A stretch of 64,000 nt of DNA from a virus (Duplodnaviria > Heunggongvirae > Uroviricota > Caudoviricetes), in IMG/VR virus record IMGVR_UViG_3300045988_163275, positions 43,752 through 107,751 of that record, one strand, 5' to 3'. This document shows, piece by piece, positions 19,491 through 62,950 of this stretch. The translations under genes and the position numbers were made by a program. Within the stretch, counting starts at the first letter, position 1. Every line of letters starts with the position of its first letter. Under the pieces are notes generated by a model, which was not told the origin of the DNA, did not search any database, and saw only the letters and a program-made list of their open reading frames with translations.

Positions 19491-19711
19491 ATAGTGTTAT
19501 CAGTGGATTTTCTTCAGCAGACCCCAGAGTGTCCCGGCCTTCGTTGCGAGCTTACCTGTTTCCGGATCGTACATGTGCCATTCACGTCGCTGGTGGACAA
19601 TATACCCATCTTCACGTTCCAGTCGTTCCAGTACGCCGGACTGCTTGAACCCTTTGGCACGCCAGTAGCCGCTTGTTTTTTCGATTTCCAGACCTGTCAG
19701 TGTAACCGCCA

Positions 19712-20047
19712 TCAACTAATCTCCTTGCAGTCATCGAAAAGGTAGCTGTCGTTCTTCGCGTGAACGCCGTATACATCACCCGATTTGTTGTAAACGAACC
19801 TATCTTTACCTACGCCAGATAGTTCGCCGTTACGTTTAGTGAGAAACGGGGAAGACAGGACGCGATCATCGCGTACCACATAAAACTGTTCGCCGCGGTC
19901 CACAACCATCGCGCCGTAATTAGCTTTAACGACGTTACGGATCAGGCCGTTTTTCGCTTCGACCACAAACATTTCGCACTCATAGACATGTGTGTCCGCA
20001 AAGACGGGGAGAGTGAGCAGCGCCAGTACCAGGGCTGTTTTCTTCAT
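19712..20047 (-). CDS. secreted/periplasmic hypothetical protein
   Basis: N-terminal signal-peptide-like MKKTALVLALLTLPVFA. Confidence 0.5.
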   Translation of the reverse strand: MKKTALVLALLTLPVFADTHVYECEMFVVEAKNGLIRNVVKANYGAMVVDRGEQFYVVRDDRVLSSPFLTKRNGELSGVGKDRFVYNKSGDVYGVHAKNDSYLFDDCKEIS

Positions 20048-20223
20048 GCCACGACTCCTTTGAAAACGCCTAATGCTGAGTCGAAGACCAGTACTACGGC
20101 CAGCGCATTGATCATCACATCATTAACAGGCGCCAGCGCTTTACGGATTGCCTCTGTGAAGATGCAGTCGAGCACAAAGGCTATCGAGATAATAAGTAAC
20201 GTAATATCTAATAAAATTTTCAT
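20044..20223 (-). CDS. small hydrophobic membrane protein (59 aa), not in ORF track
   Basis: Translation MKILLDITLLIISIAFVLDCIFTEAIRKALAPVNDVMINALAVVLVFDSALGVFKGVVA; stop overlaps next start (ATGA). Confidence 0.3.
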   Translation of the reverse strand: MKILLDITLLIISIAFVLDCIFTEAIRKALAPVNDVMINALAVVLVFDSALGVFKGVVA

Positions 20224-20262
20224 GATAGGTAAATGCTAACTTATATATTTTTGCTGTTAATA

Positions 20263-20538
20263 TCACTCAAAAGTGCTGATACCCAAAATGCGCTCAAGAT
20301 GGGCCGCGTCTTCATCGCTTACCAGCATTGTGTCGTCGACGTACCAGCAGCTACCGTTGTGCCAACAAACACCGTCATCATCGATATAAATAGAATCCGT
20401 ATCCATTCCTGTGTATTCAACTAGATTGCGTTCAATTGCCGCTTGAATTTCTTCATCGTTCAGCCCGTCGCACTTGATCATGAACAACGGGTAAACGTCA
20501 TAGTCGCTACTAGATGAAATGCGAACCAAAGTCTTCAT
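20263..20538 (-). CDS. hypothetical acidic protein
   Basis: Start placed at MKTLVRISS ATG with AAGGAG RBS and upstream palindromic motif. Confidence 0.4.
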   Translation of the reverse strand: MKTLVRISSSSDYDVYPLFMIKCDGLNDEEIQAAIERNLVEYTGMDTDSIYIDDDGVCWHNGSCWYVDDTMLVSDEDAAHLERILGISTFE

Positions 20539-21023
20539 GTGTTTTCTCCTTGTTGGTAAGTACTTATCTATCTTAATGGGCGCTATAAGGCGCACAATCA
20601 TTGTGTTCAGGCTGGTGGAAAGAACTTCTCCAGCGTGTGGTTGATAGCCTTATCAATGTGCATCAGGTGGCCAAATTCAGTGTGCCACTTCACTCGAACC
20701 CCAAGACCGGCAATGGAATCGCTTTGTAGAGCTAGAGTTAGTGCCGCATCCTCGTATTGAGCACAGCGAAGCGATTGAGCTAGACTATGGCATGACGGGG
20801 GGCGCTCTAAAGGTTGAGATTAGAGCGGCCTCGGCAGGCTACTTACTCAGACAATGGAATGTGGATTGTTCTACCAACGCCACACTCCAAGATGGTGGAG
20901 CTCAATTGTACTTAAAGAACAGAGCAACACTTTATGGAGTTAAAAACATCATGCTAGCTCCAGGGATTGAAAAAGAACTTGGTAACTAATGCACAAAAAC
21001 GAACTTGGCGCAGAGAATAAATT

Positions 21024-24000
21024 TTGATGAAAATAATCGATAACCTTAACAACCTATTAGGTGACGAGCTTCAACAGACGCTGACACCGAATACAAAGTT
21101 AAAGATTGCTGCGTCTTGCTTTTCTATTTATGCGTATGAGGCTCTCAAAAAGGAGTTAGCGAAGATAGACTCACTTGAGTTCATCTTCACATCACCTACT
21201 TTTGTCGCAGATGAAGTTACCGATAAATTCAAAAAAGAAAAACGAGAGTTCTTTATTCCCAAAGCAGGGCGTGAACGCAGCCTTTACGGAACTGACTTTG
21301 AAATACAGTTAAAGAACAAGCTCACTCAAAAGGCGATCGCCAAAGAGTGTGCAAACTGGATCAGAAAGAAAGCGACATTCAAATCAAACAAAACTGATTC
21401 TCCAATGCAGTCGTTTGTTGTGACGGAAGCACCTAGACAGCAAACAGAGACAATGAGTGCAGTTTTTGCTCCGGTTAGCGGGTTTACGGCGGTTGATCTA
21501 GGGTATCAGCGAGGAAATGCTATTTCGAATTTTGTGCAAAAAATCGATGAGCCAAATTTCACAGCCCAGTACTTACAGTTATTCGACCAAATTTGGAAAG
21601 ACCCTGCGAAGCTTCAAGATGTTACTAAAACAATTTGCGAGCATATAGAGTCTGTCTACCAGGAAAACTCGCCTGAGAAAGTCTATTTCATTATTTTGTA
21701 TAACATTTTTAATGAGTTCCTTGATGATATTACAGAGGATGTATTACCAAATGATCGAACCGGCTATCAGGACACCTTGATTTGGAACAAGTTATTCAAC
21801 TACCAAAAAGATGCCGCGACTGGGATTATCAATAAGTTAGAGACCTATAACGGCTGCATTCTGGCTGATAGTGTTGGTCTTGGTAAAACATTTACAGCGT
21901 TAGCTGTCATCAAGTATTACGAGCTCAGGAACAAGTCCGTACTTCTACTGTGTCCGAAAAAATTGGCAGATAACTGGCTCAACTTTAATCGAAACTTAAA
22001 GACAAATATTTTTGCTAAAGACCGTTTTAGTTACGATGTTTTGTGTCACACAGATTTGAGTCGAACCTCTGGCGAATCCTTCGGTACTCCGTTGAATAGA
22101 ATAAACTGGGGTAACTATGACTTGGTCGTCATTGATGAGTCGCATAACTTTAGAAATAACGATGCAGTGAAAGATCGAGAAACTCGATATCAGAAACTGA
22201 TGAATAAAGTGATTCGCGCTGGCGTAAAAACCAAGGTGCTGATGCTATCAGCGACACCAGTGAATAACAGATTTACTGACCTGAGAAACCAGCTCGCGTT
22301 AGCTTATGAAGGCGAGTCGAGCAATCTCACAAAGCATCTTAAAACCACAAAAAGCGTAGAACAGATCTTCAACCAAGCACAAGCCGCATTTAACGCTTGG
22401 TCCAAACTCGACCCAGAGACGCGAACAGCTAAAGCCATACTCGATGCCTTAGATTTTGACTTTTTTGAACTGCTTGATAGCGTCACTATCGCTCGCTCAC
22501 GAAAGCACATCACAACTTTCTACGACACAACAGATATTGGCCATTTCCCTGAACGTAACAAGCCAATCTCGTTTCATTGTCCGCTTACTACTCGTTCGGA
22601 TGTAGTAAGCCTGAATGAGATCTTTGAACAGCTTAAGCTACTCAAACTATCTGTTTATGCGCCAGTGAGTTATATCCTCCCGAGTAGATTGAAGAAATAT
22701 GAGGAGATGTATGACACGGAAGTTGAAGGCGGAAAAGGTAAGTTAAAGCAAAGCGACCGTGAAAAAAGTTTGGTTGCATTGATGACAACGAACCTCCTAA
22801 AGCGTCTTGAGAGCTCCGTATACTCGTTCAGAAGCACCTTGCAATCTCTCCATGATAACCATGTTCGTGTTCTAGGTATTATCGACGAATTCTATAAGCG
22901 AGACGGGCAAACCGAAGTGAGCAGTCTCGTTGAAGCGCTAGAGTCTATTGAAGCAGATGAAGACGATATGCCTTCTTATCACGATATGGAAATCGGTAAC
23001 AAAATCAAAATTAAGCTAATGGATATGGATCTTCCATCCTGGCAGCAGGATTTAGATGGCGATTTGGAGCTGATCAAAGGGTTACTAGATTCTGTTAGCA
23101 AAATTAAGCCAGAAGAAGATGCTAAGTTGCAGCATCTGAAATCACATATTGCTGCAAAAATAAATAATCCGATAAATCCTGGAAACCGGAAAATCATCGT
23201 GTTCACGGCGTTTGCTGACACCGCTCAGTATCTGTACGAGCAGTTGTCACCTGTGATGTTAAGCGAGCATAGAATCCATACTGCGATGATCACTGGTGGT
23301 GCCAGTTTACCTAAGACCACCTTAAAAACCGGACGAAAAGGTTACGACACACAAGAAGTGCTCACCTTGTTTTCTCCAGTTTCCAAATCGAAAGCCAGTG
23401 TATTACCTGACGAACCCGCTGAAATCGATTTGTTGATTGCTACAGACTGTATCTCTGAAGGGCAGAACTTACAGGATTGCGATTACTTAATTAACTTTGA
23501 TATTCATTGGAATCCAGTTCGGATTGTTCAGCGCTTTGGGCGTGTTGACCGTATTGGCTCGGCGAATAAATGTATTCAGTTAGTTAACTACTGGCCTGAT
23601 ATATCGCTGGATGAGTACATCAACTTAAAAGAACGTGTTGAAAGTCGAATGACGATTGTTGACGTAACAGCGACCGGTGATGACAACGTTCTAAGTTGTC
23701 AAGCGAATGATGTGTCGTACCGTAAAGAGCAGTTAAAGAAACTACAAGAAGAAGTCATCGAGCTTGAAGATTTAAAAACGGGGGTTTCTATCACCGATCT
23801 AGGTCTAAACGAATTTCGAATGGACCTGCTAAATCTAATGAAACTCTACGGCGAACCAAGAAATGCACCAAGCGGCATGCATGCGGTGGTTGAGGCTAAG
23901 CCAGAATTAGGGTTATTGCCTGGCGTGGTGTTTGCGCTGAAAAACGTTAATAACAGTATCGATAGAGATCTGCAAAACAGGCTCCACCCTTATTACCTTG

Positions 24001-24359
24001 TCTATGTATCGAATGAAGGGGACATCGTCGCTAATCATTTTGAGGTAAAGAGACTATTAGATTTAATCCGAAGTAGCTGTAAAGGTCAAACAGCACCGCT
24101 CAGTGAGATTTGTGCTTTATTTAATCGCTTAACGCAAGACGGTCGAGATATGCAGTGTTACTCTCACCTTCTAACAGATGCCATAAAAAGCATGGTTGAA
24201 GTTAAGGAAGAAAAAGATATTGATAGTTTGTTCAATGGTGGCGCTACCTCAGCTTTAGTGAATACATTTGCCGGGCTTGATGACTTTGAATTGCTGGCAT
24301 TTATTGTGATCCAGCAAAAGCAGCTGATGGAAAACAGTGCCCAGGATGAGGTTAGCTAA
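21024..24359 (+). CDS. SNF2-family helicase (1111 aa) with about 280-aa N-terminal domain of unknown function
   Basis: Motif I ADSVGLGKTF, motif II VVIDESHNFRN, motif III LMLSATPVNN, motif V/VI region DCDYLINFDIHWNPVRIVQRFGRVDRIGS. Confidence 0.85.
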   Translation: MMKIIDNLNNLLGDELQQTLTPNTKLKIAASCFSIYAYEALKKELAKIDSLEFIFTSPTFVADEVTDKFKKEKREFFIPKAGRERSLYGTDFEIQLKNKLTQKAIAKECANWIRKKATFKSNKTDSPMQSFVVTEAPRQQTETMSAVFAPVSGFTAVDLGYQRGNAISNFVQKIDEPNFTAQYLQLFDQIWKDPAKLQDVTKTICEHIESVYQENSPEKVYFIILYNIFNEFLDDITEDVLPNDRTGYQDTLIWNKLFNYQKDAATGIINKLETYNGCILADSVGLGKTFTALAVIKYYELRNKSVLLLCPKKLADNWLNFNRNLKTNIFAKDRFSYDVLCHTDLSRTSGESFGTPLNRINWGNYDLVVIDESHNFRNNDAVKDRETRYQKLMNKVIRAGVKTKVLMLSATPVNNRFTDLRNQLALAYEGESSNLTKHLKTTKSVEQIFNQAQAAFNAWSKLDPETRTAKAILDALDFDFFELLDSVTIARSRKHITTFYDTTDIGHFPERNKPISFHCPLTTRSDVVSLNEIFEQLKLLKLSVYAPVSYILPSRLKKYEEMYDTEVEGGKGKLKQSDREKSLVALMTTNLLKRLESSVYSFRSTLQSLHDNHVRVLGIIDEFYKRDGQTEVSSLVEALESIEADEDDMPSYHDMEIGNKIKIKLMDMDLPSWQQDLDGDLELIKGLLDSVSKIKPEEDAKLQHLKSHIAAKINNPINPGNRKIIVFTAFADTAQYLYEQLSPVMLSEHRIHTAMITGGASLPKTTLKTGRKGYDTQEVLTLFSPVSKSKASVLPDEPAEIDLLIATDCISEGQNLQDCDYLINFDIHWNPVRIVQRFGRVDRIGSANKCIQLVNYWPDISLDEYINLKERVESRMTIVDVTATGDDNVLSCQANDVSYRKEQLKKLQEEVIELEDLKTGVSITDLGLNEFRMDLLNLMKLYGEPRNAPSGMHAVVEAKPELGLLPGVVFALKNVNNSIDRDLQNRLHPYYLVYVSNEGDIVANHFEVKRLLDLIRSSCKGQTAPLSEICALFNRLTQDGRDMQCYSHLLTDAIKSMVEVKEEKDIDSLFNGGATSALVNTFAGLDDFELLAFIVIQQKQLMENSAQDEVS

Positions 24360-24362
24360 TCT

Positions 24363-25049
24363 ATGTACTCACCTTGGATATTTCCTGACAAAGCAAAGTT
24401 CGGTCGAGTCGTGCCGAAGAACAAAATATACGAACACAGCGCGGCAAGCGCTGGATTGAAGTCACTTTTTGTAGAGCAAGTAGAGCAAATCCTTTGGGCT
24501 TACAAGCTATCGCCTAGCACGCTGAATATTCCTCAAACCAGTGAGGTCAGTGAAATACAGGTTTTCAGTGTGAAGCTTAAAGGTGACTCGATAGACGACA
24601 GCGTACTAAAAGCCATTGATTTGGCGATACCTTTTCCCATTCTATTTGAGGTATGGGAAGCTCGCGGTGAGCAAGGCCACTACGTTGCTTGCTATAAGCG
24701 TAAGGCAGAAAATGATCAGTCAAAATGGTTTTGTAGCCGCTATTTACGCTCAGAAACCTTCTATTCAAGTGATTCATTAGCAGTGACTTCAGAAGTTTTG
24801 GGGTTGCCTACCGCCATCGATATGGCGGAGCTGTATCAAAAGCTTCTTACTCGCTTGTTACCCATACCCCAACGAGCCGCTGAGAGTATTGAAGAGGTCA
24901 TTGAACGCTTGATGGCAATTCAGGCATTGGAAAAGCAAATCTCGCAATATAAGAAGAAGGTTCATGCCGAGAAACAGTTTAACCGCAAGGTTGAGCTCAA
25001 TAAGCAGTTAAAGAATTTAAGGTGCGAGCTTCAAGAGTTACTCGCATAA
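24363..25049 (+). CDS. hypothetical protein, translationally coupled to the SNF2 helicase gene
   Basis: 228-aa ORF starting 4 bp after helicase stop; C-terminal coiled-coil-like region; no motif I can name. Confidence 0.55.
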   Translation: MYSPWIFPDKAKFGRVVPKNKIYEHSAASAGLKSLFVEQVEQILWAYKLSPSTLNIPQTSEVSEIQVFSVKLKGDSIDDSVLKAIDLAIPFPILFEVWEARGEQGHYVACYKRKAENDQSKWFCSRYLRSETFYSSDSLAVTSEVLGLPTAIDMAELYQKLLTRLLPIPQRAAESIEEVIERLMAIQALEKQISQYKKKVHAEKQFNRKVELNKQLKNLRCELQELLA

Positions 25050-25122
25050 AGAATAAACAATTTCAATCAGTTAAATAGTGCCACATGCTTTTTATGCAAG
25101 GCATCACGCAAAAGGTGAACAC

Positions 25123-27045
25123 ATGGACAAATTAAAGATGCACAGCCCCGACATGACGCAGCAAAACATAGAGAAAATTCAGGCGTTGTTTCCGAACTGC
25201 GTGACGGAATCAAGAGGAGCTAACGGAGAGCTAAAGTTAGTCATTGATTTTGACCAACTTAAACAAGAGCTATCAAATTCAATCGTTGAAGGCCCGCAAG
25301 AGCGCTATCAGCTGAACTGGCCCGGTAAGCGAGAAGCACTACTAACAGCGAACGCACCTATTGCAAAAACATTAAGACCTTGTCGAGAAGAAAGTGTTAA
25401 TTTTGATACCACAGAAAACCTCTTTATTGAAGGTGATAACCTTGATGCGCTAAAAATGTTGCAAGAAACCTATTTGGGCAAGGTTAAGGTGATTTATATA
25501 GATCCGCCCTATAATACGGGTAAGGATTTTATATACGAAGACGATTTTGCTGAAAATTCTGATGGGTTTTTGAAGCGGTCAAATCAAAAGGATGAAGAAG
25601 GCAATCGCCTTGTAGCCAATACCGATTCCAACGGTCGCTTTCACTCAGACTGGTTGAGCATGATATTTTCGAGACTTAAACTTGCACGCAATATACTAAG
25701 TAGTGATGGAATTATCTTTATTAGTATAGATGAAAACGAGCTTGATAACCTCTTGAAAATAGGAAAGGAAATATTTGGTGAAGAGAACCACATAACTACG
25801 TTTTGTTGGGAAAAAAAGAAGAAACCATCTTTTCTTAATAAAAATGTAGGTTCGAAATTCGAGTATATTGTCACCTTTTCAAAGAATCGTGATTACACAG
25901 GTGCATTTTCCATTGATCTTACAACTGAAGGTAAAAAGTACCCCCTGAATAATGCAGGGAACTCACTCGGAAACCTTGTTTTTCCAGCAGGTTCGGTACG
26001 ATTCAACTTGCCAGACCAGATTATAGAACCGCAAGATATGTCTGAGGGTAAAATAAAAACCAGGTTAATTAATAGGTTGGAAATAATTGGAGGTAAAAAC
26101 GTTAATGAATTTATCCTTGAGGGTGAATGGAGATATTCTCAGAATAGATTAAATGAAATTCTAGAAAATCGAGAAGAAATTATAATCAGCAAAGTTCCGT
26201 TTAGGCCAAATCATGTAAAAGCAGGAGGTGAGATAAAAAAAATGCACAACCTCCTAAGTGTCGCTCATTATAAAGTTTCAACTAATGAGGATGCGGATGC
26301 CGAAAGTTCAGAGTTGATGGGGAATAAATACTTTGATTACACCAAGCCTTCAAATTTAATCAAACTATTAATCCAAGCAATAACTTATGACGATCAAGAA
26401 TGTCTAGTATTAGATTTTTTTGCGGGTTCATCAACAACCGCCCATGCCGTGATGCAACTTAATGCAGAAGATGGCGGAAATCGAAAATTTATCATGGTTC
26501 AGTTGCCTGAAGAGTGTGATAAAAAATCAGAAGCCTTCAAAGCTGGCTACAAAACAATTGCTGAGATATCAAAAGAACGCATCCGCCGTGCTGGTGCAAA
26601 AATATTAGAAGGGGAGTGCCACAAAGACTGGAATAAAGACGTTGGTTTCCGAGTGCTTAAAGTTGATACATCCAATATGGCCGATGTCTACTACTCGCCA
26701 GAGCAGGTTTCTCAGGGTTCGTTAGACTTATTGGTAGATAATATTAAATCAGACCGCACTGATGAAGATTTACTTTTCCAGGTTCTACTTGATTGGGGCG
26801 TCGATTTAACCTTGCCAATTAGAAAAGAAACGATTCAAGGTAAATCGGTATTCTTTGTCGATGATGATGCACTGGTGGCCTGTTTTGATCTGCGCATAAA
26901 TGAAGCTTTGATTAAAGAGTTAGCCATAAAAGAACCTCTTCGCGTAGTGTTCCGTGATGACGGCTTTGAATCTGATGCAGTAAAAATCAATGCTGAGCAG
27001 ATTTTCAAGCAAGTGTCGCCATATACTGAAGTTAAAGCGATTTAA
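25123..27045 (+). CDS. N6-adenine DNA methyltransferase, beta-class (Type III Mod-like)
   Basis: Catalytic motif [12 protein letters not shown] near N-terminus and AdoMet motif [14 protein letters not shown] near C-terminus (IV before I order); start at ATG 25123 with AAAGGTGA RBS. Confidence 0.85.
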
Positions 27046-27140
27046 GGGGGGAGCATGACAAATTTTACCGGATTAAAATTTGCACACAGCCTTGTCGCAG
27101 ACAAGGTGTGCCCAAAGGGTTGCGTACAGGGAGGTGCGCA

Positions 27141-30100
27141 ATGAAACTTAAATTCAAAGTCCAGCCTTATCAAACTGTTGCCGTAGAGTCGGTTGTTGAC
27201 TGCTTTGCGGGGCAACCTAATACCTCCGGTATAACCTACCGAATCGATCCTGGCATTGCCAAAGATAAATTTGGCAATGCTGGCTGGGATATGAGTGACC
27301 AGGATGGGTTTAAAAATGCTGAACTTGCGATCACTGAATCGCAGTTATTGCAAAATATCCATGGTGTTCAAAGTAGACAGAACCTCCCTGTTTCAGAAGC
27401 GTTAGCCAGCAATGCTAGCTCTAAGATTAATCTCGATGTTGAAATGGAAACCGGTACAGGTAAGACATATTGCTACATCAAAACTATCTTTGAGATGAAT
27501 AAACGCTATGGCTGGAGCAAATTTATTATCGTAGTGCCTAGCATTGCCATTCGTGAAGGTGTTTACAAGTCGCTACAAATCACAGGTGAGCATTTTGCCC
27601 AGAATTACAACGGTAAAAAGGCACGGTTTTTCATCTATAACTCAAAACAATTGCACCAGTTAGAGAGTTTTTCTTCTGACAGTGGCATCAATGTCATGAT
27701 CATTAATATTCAAGCCTTTAATGCATCAGGAAAAGACAATCGACGTATTTATGAAGAGTTGGATGACTTCCAGTCTAGGCGTCCTATTGATGTTATTAGT
27801 GCAAACCGTCCAATCCTGATTTTGGATGAGCCGCAGAAGATGGAAGGTAAGAAGACATTAGATGCCTTAGCCAAATTCAAACCACTGATGGTACTTCGAT
27901 ATTCGGCCACGCATAAGACAACACATAATAAGGTGCATCGTCTGGATGCTCTTGACGCTTATAACAATAAGCTGGTTAAGAAAATTGCAGTTCGTGGTAT
28001 CTCAGTAAAGGGTTTAGCGGGCACTACAGCCTATCTATATCTGGAATCCATCGAAATCTCAAAAAAAATGCCAGTGGCTCGTATAGAGATCGAGGTTAAA
28101 CAACAAAATGGCATCAAACGCATACCCAAGAAGGTCACTAAGGGCGATAATCTTTTTGATCTTAGTAATGGTTTGGACCAGTACCGTGATTTTGTGGTTA
28201 CTGATGTCAACGCGATTAACGACACAGTTGAATTCAAAAATGGCCATGTTTTAACCGCGGGCGATGCCACGGGAGACGTGACCGAAGAGACCATTCGCCG
28301 CATACAGATTCGCGAGACAATTAAAGCACACCTTGAAAAAGAAAAAATACTTTTTAACCAGGGTATAAAGGTTCTCTCTCTCTTTTTTATTGACGAAGTC
28401 GCAAAGTATAGGGACTACTCTCAAGCCGATGAAAAAGGTGATTATGCTCGCGTTTTTGAAGAAGAGTATTCCTTGCTTGTACAGGAGTATCTTGATGAGT
28501 TGTCCCTTTTGCCAAGTGAGCAGACTGATGCCTATAAAGCCTATCTATCGGCCATTGAAGGCTCTAGAACGCATAATGGTTACTTCTCAATTGATAAGAA
28601 ATCAAATCGTCTTCAGAACCCCGGCTTTAAAGTCCGTGGTGAAGATGCCGGGCTATCAGACGATGTAGATGCCTATGATTTGATTTTAAAAGATAAGGAA
28701 AAGTTACTTTCGTTTGAAGAGCCTACTCGATTTATCTTTTCACACTCGGCCTTGCGCGAGGGGTGGGATAATCCAAACGTATTTGTCATGTGTATGTTGA
28801 AACACAGCGACAATACTATCTCTCGTCGTCAAGAAGTTGGACGTGGTTTACGTCTGGCCGTCAATAAACATGGTGACAGACAAGATCATCCGGCAACTGT
28901 GCATGAAATTAATGTCTTGTCGGTGATTGCAAGTGAAAGCTATAAAGACTTTGTCACGAATCTGCAAAAAGAGATCAGCGAGTCTCTCTCAGCGAGACCT
29001 AGAAAAGCAGATGAAGCTTATTTTACGGGTAAGACAATTACAACAGCTGATGGACCTGTAGAAGTAACACCTGTCATGGCTAAGCAAATTTATAAGTATT
29101 TGCTTAAAAATGATTATACCAATGACGTTGACGATTCAATTGCGCCATCATTCCACCAGGCTAAGGCTAGTGGGCAGTTAGCGCCAATGCCTGCTGAGTT
29201 AGAGCCTTACCGCGAGCAAATATTGACCCTGATTGACGGTGTTTATAGTGAAGCGCAATTGCCAGGTGTTGGTGATGATCGTAAACCTAAAAACAATCCG
29301 TTGAATGCTAATTTTGATAAGAAAGAGTTTCAGGAGCTTTGGCACAAAATCAATCGCAAAGCGGTTTATAAGGTTGATTTTGATTCGTCTGAGTTGATTA
29401 AAAATTGTATTCGGGTACTCAATAAAGAGCTTAAGGTAACGCCTCTTCAGTACACGATTCAAGATGGTGTTCAATTGGATGGCATTACCGACGAACAACT
29501 CAAAGCTGGACAAAGTTTCAAGGTGAAAAACACTGAGACTGAAACTCATCAATCGAGCATTCATTCTGCTGTTCGTTATGACTTGGTTGGTAAGTTGGCT
29601 GAAAATTGTGTGCTGACTCGCAAAACAGTCGCCGAAATACTGATGGGTATAGAACCTGTAGTATTTGCACAATTTAAGCAGAACCCTGAGCATTTTCTCG
29701 CTGAGGCTTCACGCCTTGTGAAAGAGCAAAAGGCATCTGTGATCATCGAGAAGCTATCATATGATCCAACGAACGAATCTTATGATGTTGATATATTCAC
29801 GGCAGAGCAAAAAATCACTGATATGACAAAAGCCGTTAGTGGCGTTAATAAGCATATTTATGATTATGTTGTCGTTGATTCACAAGGCATTGAACGGGAC
29901 TTTGTTACCGAGCTTGATACAAGCAAAGAAGTCGTGGTTTATGCAAAACTGCCTCGTGGTTTTCTGATACCGACGCCTGTTGGCGACTACAACCCTGATT
30001 GGGCGATTTCTTTCAAAGAAGGAAGTGTTAAACACATTTACTTTATTGCAGAGACTAAAGGAACGATGTCTTCGCTTGAATTGCGTGGCATAGAAGATCG

Positions 30101-43655: not shown

Positions 43656-43673
43656 CCCTTGTTGTTAAAACAA
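43656..43673. promoter_or_regulatory. class-2 palindromic motif upstream of VWA/CobT-like gene
   Basis: ttaaaacaatttgttttct immediately 5' of RBS. Confidence 0.45.
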
Positions 43674-43760
43674 TTTGTTTTCTGATGTGCGTAATTTATC
43701 ACTGTACGAACAGGCATCTAATCTGTTCGTACAGGCGCTAGAGAGGATGGGAGGGGGGTG

Positions 43761-49677: not shown

Positions 49678-49752
49678 TGGCGATGGTGGGTGGACTCGAA
49701 CCACCGACCAGTTGATTAACAGTCAACCGCTCTACCACTGAGCTACACCATC
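49678..49752 (-). tRNA. tRNA-Asn (anticodon GTT), CCA encoded
   Basis: Cloverleaf by hand: acceptor GATGGTG/CACCATC, D-stem GCTC/GAGC, anticodon stem GTTGA/TCAAC with loop CTGTTAA, T-arm GGTGG TTCGAGT CCACC, discriminator G then CCA. Confidence 0.85.
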
Positions 49753-52649: not shown

Positions 52650-52683
52650 TAGTGTTTAACCTCCATCGGTCGCTCGGGAGTTT

Positions 52684-53160
52684 TCATGTGTTTTCTTTGG
52701 TTGCTTCTTCAATGAGTGCCGCGTACACGTCAGTGACCGGCGCCAGTGAATCGGTGAGCTTGGTTTCGGATTTAGCAGGTTCTGTTTTCTTCGTGCGATG
52801 AATAAGACTGTCAATTGTCGCGGTGTTTCGCTTCCGGGGGAGCGTTCTGGCATGGTCGTTTTGCTCTTCCACTTCTTTGATAAGTGAAGACATATCGATG
52901 AAGTAGAGCTGTTCGTCTTTGCGGATCTCTTCGACCATCATTTTCAGTGCCTGACATTTACCAGCAGCAATAGCCGCAGCGCAGGACTGGAACGATGTAG
53001 CCGGGAGACGTTTTTCTTTATAGGCGAGGATCGTGTGTTGGCAGACTGTATAGCTGCAATGAGCCTCATGGCCGTTGAGCTTCACTTCCGGGCAGCGCAG
53101 CGAATAACCGTTGTTTCCGGAGATAGACGGGATTTTCGACAAATCTGTTCTTGTGGACAT
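52684..53160 (-). CDS. hypothetical Cys/His-containing protein
   Basis: 158-aa ORF with CPEV...HEAHCSYTVCQH cluster; palindromic motif upstream. Confidence 0.4.
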   Translation of the reverse strand: MSTRTDLSKIPSISGNNGYSLRCPEVKLNGHEAHCSYTVCQHTILAYKEKRLPATSFQSCAAAIAAGKCQALKMMVEEIRKDEQLYFIDMSSLIKEVEEQNDHARTLPRKRNTATIDSLIHRTKKTEPAKSETKLTDSLAPVTDVYAALIEEATKENT

Positions 53161-53240
53161 GCTTCTAACCGTAATCTTGTACTTACTTATTAATCGCAGT
53201 TTAAAGAAGCCCCACGAGGGGCTAAATGTTTTATCGAGGC

Positions 53241-54053
53241 TTACCAGGTCGCCCAGCCAGTCATTTTGTCCTGAGCAGCTTCGAACCGGTATGGGTCCAG
53301 TAAATCGTTGGTACGATGAACGGCGTAGGATTTGGCTTCTTGTTTAATCATGGGTAATTCGTTGGCCATACGAGCCACTTGCCCTGCAAAACTGGCGAGT
53401 ACTCCGTCACATGCCTGACCCGCGTCGACAATGATGCGCACCAGGTCTAAGTCGCTGCGGCACATATCGCAGATAATGCCGTATTCCACCTCACGAATGC
53501 GCTCAACGGCTTTTTTGATATCGCCACTGACCACCAATTCCAGCAAACCAGGTGGAGTTGTCAGATCTGTTACGCGCTCGGTAACTTCAGACTGTTCGAC
53601 AATACTCAGGAACGCCGCGATGGACGGGTCATCCGCCACACCAGCTCTGACTTTGAGCGTGCGAAGAGTTGCGTCGACAATATCCTCAAACCGTTCACCT
53701 TCATCGCACACAGTCTGATTGGTGTAGACAGTCTGATTAGTGTAGACAATGCGACCGTCGTACCATGCACCGGTACTCACTTCGACCGTTGCGTCTTTCA
53801 TCTCGCGAGAGAACGCCACAAGTGCCGCGCGTTTCTGCTTAACACCTGGCAACTCCGGGGACTCTCCAAAACGAACCCAGACCTGCATGTATTTCGAGCC
53901 TTCCGAAAGAGGTACGGTGCTCACGGACGTGGCGATATGCTCCAGTGCAGTTTGGATCGCCTCGTCGATAATCTTCTGGCGCTCTTCTGTATCAATTTCT
54001 ACGCCTGATTTGTCGATGATTTCGGTAACGGACTTCTGAATATCTGCTTTCAT
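53241..54053 (-). CDS. hypothetical protein containing an 18-bp tandem duplication
   Basis: 270-aa ORF; YTNQTVYTNQTV encoded by duplicated tctgatt(g/a)gtgtagaca. Confidence 0.45.
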   Translation of the reverse strand: MKADIQKSVTEIIDKSGVEIDTEERQKIIDEAIQTALEHIATSVSTVPLSEGSKYMQVWVRFGESPELPGVKQKRAALVAFSREMKDATVEVSTGAWYDGRIVYTNQTVYTNQTVCDEGERFEDIVDATLRTLKVRAGVADDPSIAAFLSIVEQSEVTERVTDLTTPPGLLELVVSGDIKKAVERIREVEYGIICDMCRSDLDLVRIIVDAGQACDGVLASFAGQVARMANELPMIKQEAKSYAVHRTNDLLDPYRFEAAQDKMTGWATW

Positions 54054-54133
54054 AAAGGTTCCTCAATTCCTTCTTCGCGCATATTCTTACAGAAAAATAA
54101 GTATGTATCTACTTATCATTGGCGGCGTGCAAT

Positions 54134-56764: not shown

Positions 56765-56782
56765 TAAACAAATTGTTTTCTA
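56765..56782. promoter_or_regulatory. class-2 palindromic motif upstream of dnaB-like gene
   Basis: ttaaacaaattgttttct about 20 bp upstream of ATG. Confidence 0.45.
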
Positions 56783-57814: not shown

Positions 57815-58582
57815 ATGGACGATTTATCGGTATACGCGAGATCATTGGATAAGGCTAAATACTATGTTTACTGTCTCTATGATACAGAAGACAAGATGAA
57901 AAGACCGTTTTACATAGGAAAAGGCAAATCGACTCGTTGTCTCGATCACATCAAGTATCCCGATGACTCTCCCAAATCCATGCGGATCAAAGAACTTTTG
58001 GCTAATAAAAAATTAGGCATAGATATTCTTCGTCATGGTATGGATGAAACCACAGCCAAACTTGTTGAGGCGACATGCATCGACCTTATGGGGGTCGGAG
58101 AGCTTACGAATAAGGTACGAGGAAGTGGTTCCATGATGGGCAGAATATCACTGGACGCCTACCATCACTTAGTGCTGCAAGAGGAATCTGAAATTGCTCC
58201 TGAGCACGCCGGTCTTGCCTTCCTGCTAAACAGCACCTACAAGTCAGGAATGTCCGCTCTGGCATTATATGAAGCTACGCGTGGCGTATGGGCAAAGGTT
58301 CCAAGAGACGAGAATCTCAAATATGCCTACGCTACATATGGGGGCCTGATAATGGAAGTTTATCAGATTGAATGCTGGGTCAAAGCCGGTTCTCAGCAGT
58401 ACTTTACAAGGGATATAGCTCTTGGCCCCGACACAAAACGTTATGAATTTGTTGGCAGAATAGCCGATGAGCATATTAGAAAACTGTATGTAGGCAAATT
58501 AATCAAGAAGCCACCAAGCTACGGCAGCCCTTTTGTGAAGGTTGGGGTGGTTAGGAATGAACATAGTGTTAGCGCGGCATAA
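57815..58582 (+). CDS. GIY-YIG nuclease domain protein
   Basis: YVYCLYD...PFYIGKGKSTRCLDH GIY-YIG motif; isolated plus-strand gene. Confidence 0.55.
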   Translation: MDDLSVYARSLDKAKYYVYCLYDTEDKMKRPFYIGKGKSTRCLDHIKYPDDSPKSMRIKELLANKKLGIDILRHGMDETTAKLVEATCIDLMGVGELTNKVRGSGSMMGRISLDAYHHLVLQEESEIAPEHAGLAFLLNSTYKSGMSALALYEATRGVWAKVPRDENLKYAYATYGGLIMEVYQIECWVKAGSQQYFTRDIALGPDTKRYEFVGRIADEHIRKLYVGKLIKKPPSYGSPFVKVGVVRNEHSVSAA

Positions 58583-58634
58583 AGCTGACACTGTACTTAT
58601 GCATTGGCGCAATGTACGCGCCAATGCATAATTT

Positions 58635-58994
58635 TTAACCTTTCTTCATCAACTCTCGTTTGATTTCGTCGGTACGCATCGTGACGTCGGCAGCAGTGAT
58701 CGCCTCGTTCAGTTTCACGATGTCTTCGATTTCCTGCGGTGACTTCTCTGCCAGATGGAAAATGGCTGCACGAATCACATCAGAACGGGTGAACTTCTCA
58801 AAACGAGGGATAAACTTCATCATCTCCAACAGTTCGAAGTACTCGTCTTCCAGCGACATTGTGCGGCTTTTAATCTTCTCTTTGCCACGAGTCGGACGCC
58901 CCTGCGGTCTGACTGGCTGGCGCAGTGGAGTGCTGCTTTTGGCCGGTTCTTTAGGCTCATTGCGCTTTGCAAGGTCTCCCATTCTCATGGACAT
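58635..58994 (-). CDS. small partition partner protein (ParG/ParB-like, putative centromere binding)
   Basis: 119-aa basic N-terminus, immediately downstream of parA-like gene with overlapping stop/start. Confidence 0.45.
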   Translation of the reverse strand: MSMRMGDLAKRNEPKEPAKSSTPLRQPVRPQGRPTRGKEKIKSRTMSLEDEYFELLEMMKFIPRFEKFTRSDVIRAAIFHLAEKSPQEIEDIVKLNEAITAADVTMRTDEIKRELMKKG

Positions 58995-59659
58995 TATTCT
59001 TCCTCCAGACTCAAGATGTAATCTACAAACTCTTCGAACTCGGCTTCTGCCTTCTTATCGCGTTCAGCGCCAGTCATTTCAAAGATAGAACGACCTGCCT
59101 CTTCCGCATCGTCATAAACGTTACGGTTGTACAGGTTAACCGGCGCAGCCTCGATGCCGAAAGTTTCGACAATTTCCTTCGCGGCCAGAATACGTGATAC
59201 CTGGGAAGGCAATGACGGACACTGGTTTATTACCGCGCGGATCTTAACTTTCTCGTTCACATTGCGAACGTTGTCGATAATCGGGTCGATATCACGCAGA
59301 GATTTCAAATCACGACGTTTAGGGCGCAGCGGGATGATGATTACATCAGCCATAAGCATCGCCAGACGCTGAATTTCGGAGTCAAAGCCACCAGCATCTA
59401 CCACTACATAATCAGTTCGCCCCTGAAGCGATTTAAGATGTTTGACGATGTCGTCCTGCACATAAGCGAACGGGATCAGTTCAAGATCTTCGTTCTGGCG
59501 ACGGTCTTCACACCAGCTGGTCGTGGTGCGCTGGATATCGATATCGGTGACGTGAACCTTCTTTTTCTTTTTAACTTTGAGACATACCGCAATTTGCTGG
59601 GCAACGGTAGATTTGCCTGGGCCGCCTTTTGTGCCGCCAACCACAATGATCTTGGTCAT
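58994..59659 (-). CDS. parA: ParA/ParF-type partition ATPase
   Basis: Deviant Walker A GGTKGGPGKST, Walker B DYVVVDAGG. Confidence 0.8.
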   Translation of the reverse strand: MTKIIVVGGTKGGPGKSTVAQQIAVCLKVKKKKKVHVTDIDIQRTTTSWCEDRRQNEDLELIPFAYVQDDIVKHLKSLQGRTDYVVVDAGGFDSEIQRLAMLMADVIIIPLRPKRRDLKSLRDIDPIIDNVRNVNEKVKIRAVINQCPSLPSQVSRILAAKEIVETFGIEAAPVNLYNRNVYDDAEEAGRSIFEMTGAERDKKAEAEFEEFVDYILSLEEE

Positions 59660-59692
59660 TGGTGAGTTTCCTTTGCGTGAATTATTGTCGTA

Positions 59693-59709
59693 TGAAACAA
59701 CTTGTTTTC
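59693..59709. promoter_or_regulatory. class-2 palindromic motif upstream of parA-like gene
   Basis: aaacaacttgttttct about 35 bp upstream of ATG. Confidence 0.45.
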
Positions 59710-59978
59710 TTATATGCGATATAGCCTAAATGCCTACGGCTGCGGTGTAAAGGTTATTTAGTAGGTTGTTATTGCCTATTGCTAGTAACTGTTTTCATTT
59801 GTCTGTTGAAAAAAGTGACAATCACCTCTATATTACGAGTACGGTAAATTGCCGTACACAATTTGATGACACATACGCAATGGGCTATAGCCCAGTTAAA
59901 TAACCTTTGAGTCGAAAACTCAATTTAAATAGAGAGCAATGATGGCCTTCCTACATCACCGGCCATCAGGGGGTACAC

Positions 59979-60248
59979 ATGTCCGCACTGAAAAAGCAGC
60001 GCATCGATTTGAGATTAACCGATGACGATAAAAGCATCATCGAGGAAGCTGCCGCAATGTCTAACCAGAGCATTACCCAGTTCATGGTTAGCAGTGCATC
60101 CGAACGTGCCGTGAAGGTGATAGAGCAACACCGTAGACTGGTTCTAAGTGAAGAGTCCTGGAATCTGGTTATGGATGCTATAAGCAATCCTCCGGCACCG
60201 AACGACAAGCTGAAACGAGCTGCCAATCGTCTGAAAAGCATGGAGTAA
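59979..60248 (+). CDS. DUF1778-type antitoxin (TacA-like)
   Basis: 89-aa protein with RIDLRLTDDDKSIIEEAA N-terminal pattern directly upstream of a GNAT gene. Confidence 0.75.
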   Translation: MSALKKQRIDLRLTDDDKSIIEEAAAMSNQSITQFMVSSASERAVKVIEQHRRLVLSEESWNLVMDAISNPPAPNDKLKRAANRLKSME

Positions 60249-60255
60249 TTTACTC

Positions 60256-60777
60256 GTGAGCAATACGACGATCGAGATTTTCTCTGGAGAGAAAGATTAT
60301 GATCTAAACGGTTTTGATTGCGGCGAAGAGTCGCTAAACGCATTTTTGACCAACCACTTAAAAAGACAGCATGAGGGAAAAATTCTTCGCGCTTATGTGC
60401 TTTGCACTAAAGAAGAAATACCAAAGGTATTAGGTTATTACACTTTGTCAGGCAGCTGCTTTGAGAAAGAAACCTTACCTTCAAAGAGTCAGCAAAAGAA
60501 AGTGCCTTATCGGAATGTCCCAAGTATCACTTTAGGCAGACTGGCTTTGGACAAATCTCTTCAAGGTCAGGGGCTTGGCTCAATGCTTGTAACTCACGCA
60601 ATGCGTGTTGTGTACAATGCATCTCTTGCGGTAGGCATTCATGGGCTTTTCGTTGAGGCGTTGAACGATAAAGCCAGGGCGTTTTATAAAAGTTTGGGCT
60701 TTATCCAGCTGGTTGGTAACAACGATCGTTCTTTGTTCTATCCAACAAAATCTATCGAAAAATTGTTCGAAGAATAA
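60256..60777 (+). CDS. GNAT-family acetyltransferase toxin (TacT-like)
   Basis: GNAT fold motifs LQGQGLGSMLV and ARAFYKSLGF; 8-bp downstream of antitoxin, GTG start. Confidence 0.75.
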   Translation: MSNTTIEIFSGEKDYDLNGFDCGEESLNAFLTNHLKRQHEGKILRAYVLCTKEEIPKVLGYYTLSGSCFEKETLPSKSQQKKVPYRNVPSITLGRLALDKSLQGQGLGSMLVTHAMRVVYNASLAVGIHGLFVEALNDKARAFYKSLGFIQLVGNNDRSLFYPTKSIEKLFEE

Positions 60778-60945
60778 TGTGTCCCCCTCATTTGAGGGGA
60801 ACTTCGACATCACCAACCGCAAACTCTCTCTCCCATCGTATTGTGAAAAAGGATTTGGCGTTCGGTTTCTTCGGTCATTACATCGTCATTGCTGATATAA
60901 ATAGGTTCAGCGCCATCGCAGAACAACACGCTGGTGGTCTGTGGC

Positions 60946-62362: not shown

Positions 62363-62950
62363 TTACTCTGCTGGTATTGTTGGCCAGTCAATATCCGGTG
62401 CCGTTGATGTGTCAATGCGGTTCAATAAAACTCTATACTTCTTCCATGCAGTCAGCAACGATGCTTCTTCCTCCGTTGCAATCTCCAAATCTACAGCATC
62501 CTGAAGTGGCGCAATGTGCTCGCTGGCTACCTGCATCAGACTTTTTTTTGTTTCTTCCGCTTCCCGTATCTGAAACAATTTTTCTGTTTCCTCATCCTTC
62601 TCCCAGGATGTGCCGTCCCACTTCTGATATTCCCCATCCGGTGATAACCAGGTGACATTTTCCGGTAATGGCCCAAGTTCAGAAATAAACAACGCGTCCC
62701 CTGATTCCACGTCATAGACCGTTTTACCCCTGTGGTCTTCAACGAGACTCCATGATTTATTTTCGCTATTGAATACGGCCACGAAGCCAGCAGGTACATC
62801 CGGTGGCGCTATATCCGTAGAATAAGCTGGCAGCCCTGTATGAGGTGGAATATATGCATCACCTTCACCAATAAATTCATTGGTTCCGGCCAACAGATTA
62901 TAAATTTTTATGGTCCGTGGTTGTTCACTCATTGTGAAGTCCATGTTCAC
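62363..62950 (-). CDS. tail fiber assembly protein (Tfa-like chaperone)
   Basis: N-terminal [28 protein letters not shown] and C-terminal WPTIP typical of Tfa proteins. Confidence 0.75.

What the first reader, a model, noticed from the sequence alone, without database searches (positions are those of the whole stretch)
58635..60777. Partition operon adjacent to a GNAT/DUF1778 toxin-antitoxin pair
The ParA-type ATPase (deviant Walker A) and its small partner on the minus strand are followed about 300 bp away by a plus-strand antitoxin-toxin pair (89 aa, then 173-aa GNAT starting 8 bp later). These are plasmid-style stabilization functions inside a phage genome. GNAT toxins of this family, as far as I recall, acetylate aminoacyl-tRNA, which is notable given the element also encodes its own tRNA.
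Basis: partly seen in the sequence, partly recalled or inferred. Interest (0 to 1): 0.4.

Follow-up and report, generated by a model that had tools for sequence, protein, structure and literature searches.

The report
Phage-plasmid partition genes beside toxin-antitoxin
This is the plasmid-maintenance corner of a well-known kind of E. coli phage-plasmid (SSU5/pHCM2 family): a conserved two-gene partition operon next to a swapped-in copy of the well-studied AtaRT/KacAT toxin-antitoxin pair. It is ordinary, and the suggested link to the element's own tRNA does not hold.

Summary

The window is an SSU5/pHCM2-type phage-plasmid of E. coli, 99.9% identical to pGS04EC-1 across this region. The pair is a close paralogue of AtaR/AtaT (75% and 69% identity) and of KacA/KacT. 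It keeps the catalytic Tyr, the DNA-contact residues, and the GTACGG-N7-CCGTAC operator just after its own promoter.

ParA is ParF-like (type Ib) and core to the family. The TA is accessory cargo in a variable slot between the parA promoter and the lysis cassette. It is found in 152 of 5426 complete E. coli genomes, always on plasmids; the par operon is in 260.

The tRNA idea fails. The only real tRNA is tRNA-Asn, and it is 100% identical in SSU5, which lacks the TA. Published AtaT/KacT targets are Gly- and hydrophobic aminoacyl-tRNAs.

Still unresolved are the centromere and the fold of the 119-aa partner, for which there are only sub-threshold RHH hints.

One thing seen in passing is the most unusual result: the parA promoter carries one copy of a palindrome, AAACAAnTTGTTT, enriched across the whole family.

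The parts
58635..58994 (-). 119-aa partner of ParA, the presumed centromere-binding/adaptor protein ('ParB-like', PHROG 5111). It has a disordered basic N-terminal half and a helical C-terminal half.
58994..59659 (-). ParA, a small Walker-type (type Ib, ParF-like) partition ATPase with deviant Walker A KGGPGKST.
   Evidence: NCBIfam ParA_partition covers the full profile at 3.7e-34 but scores 118.1 bits, below its 180-bit cut-off. PHROG 164 'ParA-like partition protein' 8.9e-53. Best solved relatives are ParF/ParA of TP228, 4DZZ and 5U1G, E about 5e-12 over residues 3-200. Conserved in SSU5, Cyrano, PhiR41_1 and Klebsiella phages.
59660..59766 (-). par regulatory region, about 107 bp and almost invariant across the family. 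It has a candidate promoter (TTTACA-17-TAGGCT on the - strand), two TAGGC direct repeats and the 13-bp palindrome. This is the most likely place for the ParB operator or centromere, but none was identified.
   Evidence: Alignments: near-identical in window, Cyrano, SSU5, PhiR41_1 and Klebsiella pJN2-26, although the parA coding sequences are only 82-94% identical (pS 0.59 window vs Cyrano). Homology to TA-less relatives ends at about 59766.
59695..59707 (.). One copy of the family-wide palindrome AAACAAnTTGTTT (in parA sense: TATAAGAAAACAAGTTGTTTCA), 35 nt upstream of the parA ATG. Probably the operator of a shared phage regulator.
59806..59834 (+). Promoter of the TA operon, TTGAAA-17-TATATT.
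   Evidence: 10 of 12 consensus match, the best in the scanned region. Conserved in the Cyrano allele.
59839..59857 (+). AtaR/KacA-type operator palindrome GTACGGTAAATTGCCGTAC, starting 5 nt after the -10 hexamer.
   Evidence: Unique in the window. The same GTACGG..CCGTAC arms stand upstream of chromosomal ataRT of O157:H7 (GTACGGTgacatACCGTAC) and of an IncF-plasmid homologue (GTACGGTatttttCCGTAC). KacAT and AtaRT are published to bind a palindrome spanning the transcription start (PMC6698736).
59979..60248 (+). [quoted passage not shown]
   Evidence: Pfam TacA1 3.5e-26. KacA 5ZGN 2.5e-41 and AtaR 6AJM 5.2e-40. 75% identical to AtaR. R8, D10 and R12, the DNA contacts in KacA, are conserved.
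60256..60777 (+). GNAT toxin, 173 aa, AtaT/KacT clade: an aminoacyl-tRNA N-acetyltransferase by homology.
   Evidence: phmmer against AtaT 6GTS 1.1e-78 and KacT 5ZGN 6e-76. 69% identical to AtaT over the full length. Tyr144 aligns with the tyrosine at the same position in AtaT; the corresponding KacT residue is Y145, the site of the published Y145F variant. The LQGQGLG acetyl-CoA loop is present.
60781..60802 (.). GC-rich hairpin between the toxin stop and the Rz1 stop. This is the right edge of the cassette and a likely terminator.
   Evidence: 9-bp stem, 6 GC pairs. Homology with TA-less relatives resumes just beyond it.
58597..58631 (.). Perfect 14-bp-stem hairpin between the convergent GIY-YIG gene and the parB-like gene, a likely terminator.
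   Evidence: (I2).
57815..58582 (+). Neighbouring cargo gene in the second variable slot, downstream of par: a 255-aa GIY-YIG protein matching the anti-phage defence protein PD-T4-3.
   Evidence: PADLOC PD-T4-3 1.6e-23, residues 11-231 on profile 11-238 of 256. Pfam LEM-3 GIY-YIG 5.6e-07. In Cyrano and SSU5 DUF2971 genes occupy this slot. PD-T4-3 is reported in E. coli/Shigella SSU5-type elements (bioRxiv 10.1101/2025.09.12.675607).

Best explanation
The locus is the maintenance corner of an SSU5/pHCM2-type phage-plasmid. It has two parts.

(1) parA plus the 119-aa gene form a type Ib (ParF/ParG-style) partition operon that is core to the family. By inference, the small protein binds a centromere and stimulates the ParA ATPase through its flexible basic N-terminal half, so prophage-plasmid copies are placed in both daughter cells.

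(2) The divergent 89-aa/173-aa pair is a self-contained AtaRT/KacAT-type type II toxin-antitoxin cassette sitting in a variable cargo slot. By homology, the antitoxin's N-terminal RHH binds the GTACGG-N7-CCGTAC operator and represses the operon, and its C-terminus blocks the toxin. Still by inference, in cells that lose the element the labile antitoxin decays. The GNAT then acetylates the amino group of charged tRNAs (Gly, hydrophobic and initiator Met), which stops translation and penalises cured cells. This is post-segregational addiction.

Shown here: gene identities, conserved catalytic and DNA-contact residues, the conserved operator, purifying selection, core versus accessory distribution.

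Inferred: toxicity, neutralisation, addiction, and the partner's role as centromere binder.
For: Element identity:
- 99.9% identical to E. coli plasmid pGS04EC-1.
- 87-94% identical to phages SSU5, Cyrano and PhiR41_1 over par.

TA:
- Searches give family, identity and residues.
- The operator is conserved in three independent genomic contexts, matching the published KacAT/AtaRT-operator structures.
- dN/dS is 0.04-0.06.
- A GNAT-RHH pair, GmvAT, is cited on the Shigella pINV plasmid. That it stabilises pINV is from my own knowledge of McVicker and Tang 2016.

Par:
- ParF-like ParA.
- A coupled small downstream ORF confined to this phage-plasmid family.
- An ultra-conserved 107-bp upstream region.

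Core versus cargo:
- The par operon is found in 260 E. coli genomes and the TA cassette in 152, all on plasmids and none on chromosomes.
- In PLSDB the wider region matches 736 plasmids across Klebsiella, Escherichia, Enterobacter and Salmonella. The cassette matches only 145, of which 143 are Escherichia or Shigella.
- The same slot holds other genes in SSU5, PhiR41_1 and Klebsiella pJN2-26.

Parallel case: the related plasmid pMT1 shows the same divergent par/TA layout built from non-homologous parts, a type Ia ParAB and Phd/YefM-RelE/ParE 301 bp apart.
Against: - No function was tested.
- No iterated centromere repeats were found near par.
- The RHH assignment of the 119-aa protein rests only on sub-threshold hits. 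The AF2 model is poor (pLDDT 65) and a profile comparison with AtaR-family RHH was negative.
- About 30% of E. coli chromosomes carry ataRT at 65% nucleotide identity. Its antitoxin might neutralise the phage-plasmid toxin and blunt addiction.
- The cassette sits among fast-changing cargo that includes a defence gene. That would also fit a role in defence or competition rather than stabilisation.
Confidence: 0.78

Rival explanations
1. The TA cassette is mainly a weapon rather than a stabiliser. It would act as an abortive-infection or anti-phage module, or as a means for TA-bearing phage-plasmids to displace TA-less incompatible relatives.
For: - It occupies a hypervariable slot. The alternative occupants, a PHROG 2594 + 3307 pair, are only 31-36% identical between SSU5 and PhiR41_1, although the neighbouring par operon is 91-94% identical to the window in both.
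- The other flank of par carries a PD-T4-3-like defence gene.
- Only about 58% of E. coli members carry it, so it is dispensable for maintenance.
Against: - Neither protein hits any PADLOC defence model.
- I found no report of phage defence by a GNAT-RHH pair in the held literature.
- Plasmid stabilisation by a GNAT-RHH pair has precedent (GmvAT).
- Competition between plasmids and addiction are not mutually exclusive.
Confidence: 0.2
2. The element's own tRNA is functionally tied to the GNAT toxin, for example as a decoy or a resistant substitute for an acetylated tRNA.
For: Only the co-presence in one element. The tRNA-Asn acceptor stem does have G4-C69 and G5-C68, and the published AtaT determinant is a run of consecutive G-C pairs in the lower half of the acceptor stem.
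Against: - tRNA-Asn is 100% identical in SSU5, which lacks the TA, and is present in Klebsiella relatives and in P1, P7 and D6.
- It lies about 10 kb from the TA.
- Asn-tRNA is not a reported substrate of the AtaT/KacT clade.
- The second 'tRNA' beside the TA is a false call.
Confidence: 0.03
3. ParA does not work with the 119-aa protein. Either its partner is one of the two ParB-N-terminal-domain proteins encoded near the packaging genes, or this ParA/MipZ-like ATPase has a non-partition role.
For: - The 119-aa protein has no significant family or fold match.
- pGS04EC-1 encodes two 'ParB N-terminal domain' proteins elsewhere.
- No centromere was found next to par.
Against: - The 119-aa gene is translationally coupled to parA.
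- It accompanies parA in every relative inspected.
- It is under purifying selection.
- It is absent together with this ParA from pMT1, which keeps the ParB-N-domain pair beside its terminase genes while using a separate type Ia ParAB.
- ParF-type ATPases classically pair with a small downstream protein.
Confidence: 0.08
4. The GNAT is an ordinary, non-toxic acetyltransferase, and the pair is not a working TA.
For: NCBIfam gives only weak generic GNAT hits such as RimI. RefSeq names it simply 'GNAT family N-acetyltransferase'.
Against: - 69% full-length identity to AtaT and about 1e-76 to KacT, both experimentally toxic (PMC9177977).
- A cognate DUF1778 partner, a conserved operator and the tyrosine aligned with AtaT's.
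- dN/dS 0.055.
Confidence: 0.03

Closest known systems
AtaR-AtaT of E. coli O157:H7 and KacA-KacT of Klebsiella pneumoniae (GNAT-RHH type II TA, clade A of PMC9177977)
   Same: - Gene order, sizes (89/173 aa against 88/175 aa) and short spacer.
- 75% (antitoxin) and 69% (toxin) identity to AtaR/AtaT.
- The tyrosine aligned with AtaT's, the acetyl-CoA loop, and antitoxin DNA contacts R8/D10/R12.
- GTACGG..CCGTAC operator next to the -10.
   Different: - Carried on a phage-plasmid, not on the chromosome. No chromosomal copy at 80% nucleotide identity or more in 5426 E. coli genomes.
- The untranslated stretch between operator and start codon is about 120 nt, against about 30 nt in ataRT. It is not unusually structured (z -1.46).
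- Substrate range and toxicity are untested.
ParF-ParG of plasmid TP228 (type Ib partition)
   Same: A small ParA without an N-terminal DNA-binding domain, and the best solved match (4DZZ and 5U1G, E about 5e-12). It is followed by a small co-translated partner with a flexible basic N-terminal half.
   Different: - The partner has no detectable sequence similarity to ParG.
- RHH is only hinted at.
- It carries two extra C-terminal helices in a low-confidence model.
- No array of short repeats like parH was found upstream.
Other phage-plasmid maintenance modules: pMT1 par/Phd-RelE seen here; P1 parAB with phd-doc and N15 sopAB recalled from my own knowledge
   Same: Temperate phages kept as low-copy plasmids by a partition system plus a type II TA. 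In pMT1 par and TA are likewise divergent and about 300 bp apart. The close relative pGS04EC-1 additionally carries Phd/Doc.
   Different: The proteins are not homologous: type Ia ParAB or SopAB, and Doc or RelE/ParE toxins. This window itself lacks the Phd/Doc insertion.

Membership tests
GNAT-RHH (AtaRT/KacAT/TacAT) type II toxin-antitoxin | Toxin is a GNAT-fold acetyltransferase with an acetyl-CoA loop and the catalytic tyrosine | tested here: met
   Pfam Acetyltransf_1. E 1e-78 to AtaT and 6e-76 to KacT. Tyr144 aligns with AtaT's tyrosine, and LQGQGLG is present.
GNAT-RHH (AtaRT/KacAT/TacAT) type II toxin-antitoxin | Antitoxin of the DUF1778/TacA family with N-terminal RHH DNA contacts | tested here: met
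   TacA1 3.5e-26. KacA 2.5e-41. R8, D10 and R12 conserved.
GNAT-RHH (AtaRT/KacAT/TacAT) type II toxin-antitoxin | Antitoxin-first bicistronic operon with a palindromic operator at its own promoter | tested here: met
   7-nt spacer. Promoter at 59806-59834. Palindrome at 59839-59857, shared with ataRT and an IncF homologue. Binding itself was not tested.
GNAT-RHH (AtaRT/KacAT/TacAT) type II toxin-antitoxin | Toxin arrests growth by acetylating aminoacyl-tRNA; antitoxin neutralises it | not testable with these tools
   Known for AtaT and KacT (PMC7595197, PMC9177977). Inferred here from 69% identity.
Type Ib (ParF/ParG-like) plasmid partition system | Small ParA (about 200-230 aa) with deviant Walker A and no N-terminal HTH | tested here: met
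   221 aa, KGGPGKST. ParF 5.3e-12. The ParA_partition profile is covered end to end at 3.7e-34 but scores below its curated cut-off, 118 against 180 bits.
Type Ib (ParF/ParG-like) plasmid partition system | Small downstream centromere-binding partner with an RHH fold | tested here: inconclusive
Type Ib (ParF/ParG-like) plasmid partition system | Centromere of iterated short repeats at or near the operon | tested here: inconclusive
   No repeat array near par. There is only an ultra-conserved 107-bp upstream region with two TAGGC repeats. The 13-bp palindrome there persists in pMT1, which lacks these proteins, so it is unlikely to be the centromere.
Type Ib (ParF/ParG-like) plasmid partition system | Stabilises a low-copy replicon | not testable with these tools
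   Needs a plasmid-loss assay.
SSU5/pHCM2-group phage-plasmid | Synteny and high identity with SSU5-type phage and plasmid genes: helicase-primase, par, lysis cassette, tail fibre, repA with iterons | tested here: met
   Classification follows PMC7969092.

The most novel reading that the evidence does not exclude
Partition in SSU5-type phage-plasmids is wired into the phage's global regulatory circuit.

The parA promoter carries one copy of a 13-bp palindrome (AGAAAACAAnTTGTTT in gene sense). That palindrome marks at least 18 promoter-proximal sites across the 106-kb genome, including the helicase operon, the CobT/DnaE region, many early genes and the small-terminase operon. A single still-unidentified regulator would therefore co-control partition, replication and lytic genes.

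The AtaRT cassette lacks the site and runs on its own operator, as an autonomous swap-in at a cargo hotspot.
Probability: 0.4. Interest if true: 0.45.

Novelty: new member of a known kind. Interest (0 to 1): 0.2.

Why it matters
It matters little as a discovery. Both modules belong to well-characterised families, are already annotated in RefSeq and in phage Cyrano, and sit in a phage-plasmid group whose plasmid-type maintenance genes are well documented.

The practical value is in three points:
- A clean map of what is core (par and its ultra-conserved promoter) and what is exchangeable cargo (the AtaRT-like TA on one side, PD-T4-3 or DUF2971 genes on the other) in a clinically widespread E. 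coli phage-plasmid.
- A testable pointer that chromosomal AtaR, present in roughly 30% of E. coli, may cross-neutralise the phage-plasmid toxin.
- The family-wide operator-like palindrome, which could give a handle on the unknown lysis-lysogeny and maintenance control of SSU5-type elements.

Tried and rejected
1. tRNA link: rejected.

2. The inverted repeat AAAGGTTATTTA/TAAATAACCTTT (59749-60 and 59897-908) looked like cassette boundaries. It is not conserved in the Cyrano allele, so it is probably chance.

3. Structured leader of the TA mRNA: folding energy is not unusual (z -1.46).

4. Fold of the 119-aa protein:
- The AF2 model is poor (pLDDT 65).
- A PDB profile search gives only noise.
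- hhalign against the AtaR family is negative.
- An exhaustive profile search found only 18 clusters and no link to a named family.

5. The palindrome AAACAAnTTGTTT as a dispersed centromere for the 119-aa protein (by analogy with N15 or pSM19035 omega): disfavoured. pMT1 keeps the sites but has neither this ParA nor the 119-aa protein.

6. Centromere search by direct, inverted and tandem repeats around par: nothing convincing.

7. Cyrano's annotation of the 119-aa protein as a 'RelE/ParE putative toxin': no support in Pfam, NCBIfam, PADLOC or PDB searches.

8. The alternative slot genes of SSU5, PhiR41_1 and pJN2-26 have no Pfam or PADLOC match. Their function stays unknown.

9. Literature search for this TA or this par system in SSU5-type elements: nothing specific in the held library.
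Full report
**1. Observation**

The four ORFs are exactly as described:
- a 119-aa ORF at 58635-58994 (-)
- ParA, 221 aa, at 58994-59659 (-)
- an 89-aa ORF at 59979-60248 (+)
- a 173-aa ORF at 60256-60777 (+), GTG start

ParA begins MTKIIVVGGTKGGPGKST, which is the deviant Walker A. The parA stop and the start of the 119-aa ORF overlap as TAATG, with GGAGGA upstream, so the two are translationally coupled. The divergent gap between parA and the antitoxin gene is 319 bp. The toxin starts 8 nt after the antitoxin stop.

Pfam gives AAA_31, MipZ and CbiA for ParA, TacA1 (DUF1778) at 3.5e-26 for the 89-aa protein, and GNAT families for the 173-aa protein. Between two natural alleles, the window and phage Cyrano, dN/dS is 0.028 (parA), 0.057 (119-aa gene), 0.038 (antitoxin) and 0.055 (toxin). 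All four are functional genes.

**2. What the element is**

The region is 99.9% identical to E. coli plasmid pGS04EC-1. The par operon is 87-94% identical to those of Salmonella phage SSU5, Escherichia phages Cyrano, PhiR41_1 and CMS-2020a, and 82% to Klebsiella phage-plasmids.

The neighbours are a DnaB-like helicase and primase on one side. On the other are a spanin/endolysin/holin lysis cassette, a tail-fibre assembly gene and a tail-fibre gene. repA with 21-bp iterons lies at 17.3-18.9 kb.

This is therefore an SSU5/pHCM2-group phage-plasmid, a described group (PMC7969092). Plasmid-style maintenance genes are expected in it.

**3. The toxin-antitoxin pair**

- The toxin matches the solved structures of AtaT (6GTS, 1.1e-78) and KacT (5ZGN, 6e-76). 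It is 69% identical to AtaT of O157:H7 over its full length.
- The antitoxin matches KacA (2.5e-41) and AtaR (5.2e-40) and is 75% identical to AtaR.
- Tyr144 aligns with AtaT's tyrosine (the corresponding KacT residue is Y145), the QGQGLG loop is present, and the antitoxin's DNA-contact residues R8, D10 and R12 are conserved.
- A good sigma-70-type promoter, TTGAAA-17-TATATT at 59806-59834, is followed 5 nt later by the palindrome GTACGGTAAATTGCCGTAC. That palindrome is unique in the window.
- The same arms stand in front of chromosomal ataRT (GTACGGTgacatACCGTAC) and of an IncF-plasmid homologue (GTACGGTatttttCCGTAC).
- KacAT and AtaRT hexamers are published to bind a palindrome spanning the transcription start, with conditional cooperativity shown for KacAT (PMC6698736).

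The cassette thus has every sequence-level hallmark of an AtaRT/KacAT-type module. By homology the toxin should acetylate Gly-tRNA and hydrophobic aminoacyl-tRNAs, including initiator Met-tRNA (PMC7595197 and PMC9177977).

**4. The partition operon**

ParA's best solved relatives are ParF/ParA of TP228 (4DZZ and 5U1G, about 5e-12). The NCBIfam ParA_partition profile is covered end to end at 3.7e-34 but scores below its curated cut-off. PHROG 164 is annotated 'ParA-like partition protein'. This is a type Ib ATPase.

Its partner belongs to a very small family. Homologues occur only in SSU5-type elements, with 18 representative clusters among 1.84 billion proteins. The family shows:
- a conserved MGDLAK N-terminus
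- a variable linker
- an invariant basic stretch, RPQGRPTRGK
- a conserved core, I-K-S-R-T-x-S-x-E-D-E ... F-T-R-S-D-V-I-R-A-A-I

This core reads like a ribbon-helix-helix. Support for that is only sub-threshold:
- RHH_1 at E 0.005 and 0.11 in two homologues
- the RHH family aCcr1 at 2.4e-4

I treat the RHH fold as likely but unproven.

No iterated centromere was found. What stands out is the roughly 107 bp upstream of parA (59660-59766). It is almost invariant even in Klebsiella pJN2-26, whose parA is only 82% identical. The promoter, the operator and possibly the centromere should lie there.

**5. Core versus cargo**

Homology with SSU5 and PhiR41_1 stops at about 59766 and resumes at the Rz1 gene beyond 60802. 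The slot between holds different contents in different relatives:
- the TA cassette in the window and Cyrano
- a two-gene pair of unknown function (PHROG 2594 + 3307), only 31-36% identical between SSU5 and PhiR41_1
- a 185-aa orphan in Klebsiella pJN2-26

The cassette is in 152 of 5426 complete E. coli genomes, always on plasmids and never on chromosomes. The par operon is in 260. These are megablast counts, so about 58% is approximate. In PLSDB the cassette is essentially restricted to Escherichia and Shigella members.

The other flank of par is also variable. Here and in PhiR41_1 it holds a GIY-YIG protein matching the defence protein PD-T4-3 (1.6e-23). In Cyrano and SSU5 it holds DUF2971 and other genes.

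pMT1, a related plasmid, has the same divergent par/TA layout made of unrelated parts.

**6. The tRNA idea**

ARAGORN reports two tRNAs. Rfam confirms only tRNA-Asn at 49678-49752 (76 bits). The 'tRNA-Lys' across the parA start is not supported.

The tRNA-Asn segment is 100% identical in SSU5, which lacks the TA. Related copies occur in Klebsiella relatives and in P1, P7 and D6. Asn-tRNA is not a reported AtaT/KacT substrate. There is no evidence of a link.

**7. Mechanism and rivals**

The most likely reading is that par actively segregates the low-copy prophage-plasmid, and the AtaRT-like cassette adds post-segregational addiction under its own autoregulated promoter.

The main rival is that the cassette serves defence or competition between elements, given its hotspot location. 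Against this, there is no PADLOC hit and I found no published phage-defence role for GNAT-RHH pairs.

One complication is chromosomal ataRT. It sits in about 1627 E. coli chromosomes at 65% nucleotide identity. Cross-neutralisation between chromosomal and plasmid GNAT-RHH pairs has been seen in Klebsiella (PMC9431474). Whether that happens here is untested.

**8. Seen in passing**

The palindrome AAACAAnTTGTTT upstream of parA is one of four exact copies in the window. With up to 2 mismatches, the window gives 10 matches counted on both strands, against 2.6 expected. In the whole of pGS04EC-1 there are 10 exact copies and 18 with at most one mismatch, against 0 and 0.5 in Markov simulations.

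All four copies in the window lie 19-35 nt upstream of a minus-strand ATG, in one orientation (AGA-AAACAA...). Most of the other sites in pGS04EC-1 show the same layout, and several have a recognisable -10-like hexamer just upstream, by my reading of the sequence.

pMT1 keeps such sites at orthologous promoters although it lacks this ParA and the 119-aa protein. The motif is therefore more likely the operator of a family-wide regulator than a dispersed centromere. The TA promoter has no copy.

**9. Verdict**

The system is a new, uncharacterised member of well-known kinds in a known phage-plasmid family. Interest is low.

Noticed in passing
window 395-407, 43668-43680, 56766-56778, 59695-59707; also pGS04EC-1 (L007/L008/L009) and pMT1 (L012/L013): A 13-bp palindrome, AAACAAnTTGTTT (AGAAAACAAnTTGTTT in gene sense). 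In the window it sits 19-35 nt upstream of minus-strand start codons: parA, the DnaB-like helicase, the CobT-like 766-aa gene and one more. The whole plasmid has 10 exact copies and 18 with at most one mismatch, against 0 and 0.5 expected. It persists in pMT1, which lacks this par system. It looks like the operator of a family-wide regulator. I found no description of it in the held literature.
   Followed up: partly
window 57815-58582 (+): A 255-aa GIY-YIG protein immediately downstream of par matches the anti-phage defence protein PD-T4-3 (PADLOC 1.6e-23). It occupies a second variable slot, which holds DUF2971 genes in Cyrano and SSU5.
   Followed up: partly
L003 (SSU5) 6178-7334; L004 (PhiR41_1) 7329-8504; L010 (pJN2-26) 5846-6403: In relatives without the TA, the same slot holds either a two-gene pair of unknown function (PHROG 2594 + 3307) or a 185-aa orphan. 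The pair is only 31-36% identical between SSU5 and PhiR41_1, although the par operon next to it is over 90% identical to the window in both. These may be another fast-evolving addiction or defence cassette.
   Followed up: partly
window 59591-59671 (+): ARAGORN calls an 81-nt tRNA-Lys(UUU) across the parA start codon on the opposite strand. Rfam finds no tRNA there. Treated as a false positive.
   Followed up: yes
window 49678-49752 (-): tRNA-Asn(GUU) has an acceptor stem (GAUGGUG) that, from memory, differs from that of host tRNA-Asn. The segment is 100% identical in SSU5 and about 90% in P1, P7 and D6. A tRNA-Asn is thus shared across unrelated phage-plasmid families.
   Followed up: partly
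L013 (pMT1) 17988-21016: In pMT1 a type Ia ParA/ParB operon is divergent from a Phd/YefM-RelE/ParE pair, 301 bp apart. This is the same architecture as here, built from non-homologous genes.
   Followed up: no
window 62403-62601 (-): A full-length Rfam hit to IS009 (RF02111, 191 bits) lies inside the tail-fibre assembly gene.
   Followed up: no
window 17333-17408 and 17716-17780: Two clusters of 21-bp repeats (CCACTATAGAGAGCAAAATAA, 3-4 copies each) lie just upstream of repA (17875-18930 +). They are presumably the replication iterons. They are about 41 kb from par, so the replication and partition modules are not adjacent.
   Followed up: partly
window about 52650-54130, compared with pGS04EC-1 record 21900-29300 (L009): The nearly identical plasmid pGS04EC-1 carries about 7.4 kb that the window lacks, between the DNA ligase and primase genes: a fimbrial operon, IS remnants and a Phd/Doc TA pair. 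It also has a YafO-family toxin near the tRNA.
   Followed up: partly
L002 (Cyrano) 3999-4358: The GenBank record of phage Cyrano annotates the homologue of the 119-aa ParA partner as a 'RelE/ParE putative toxin'. No Pfam, NCBIfam, PADLOC or PDB search here supports that name.
   Followed up: yes
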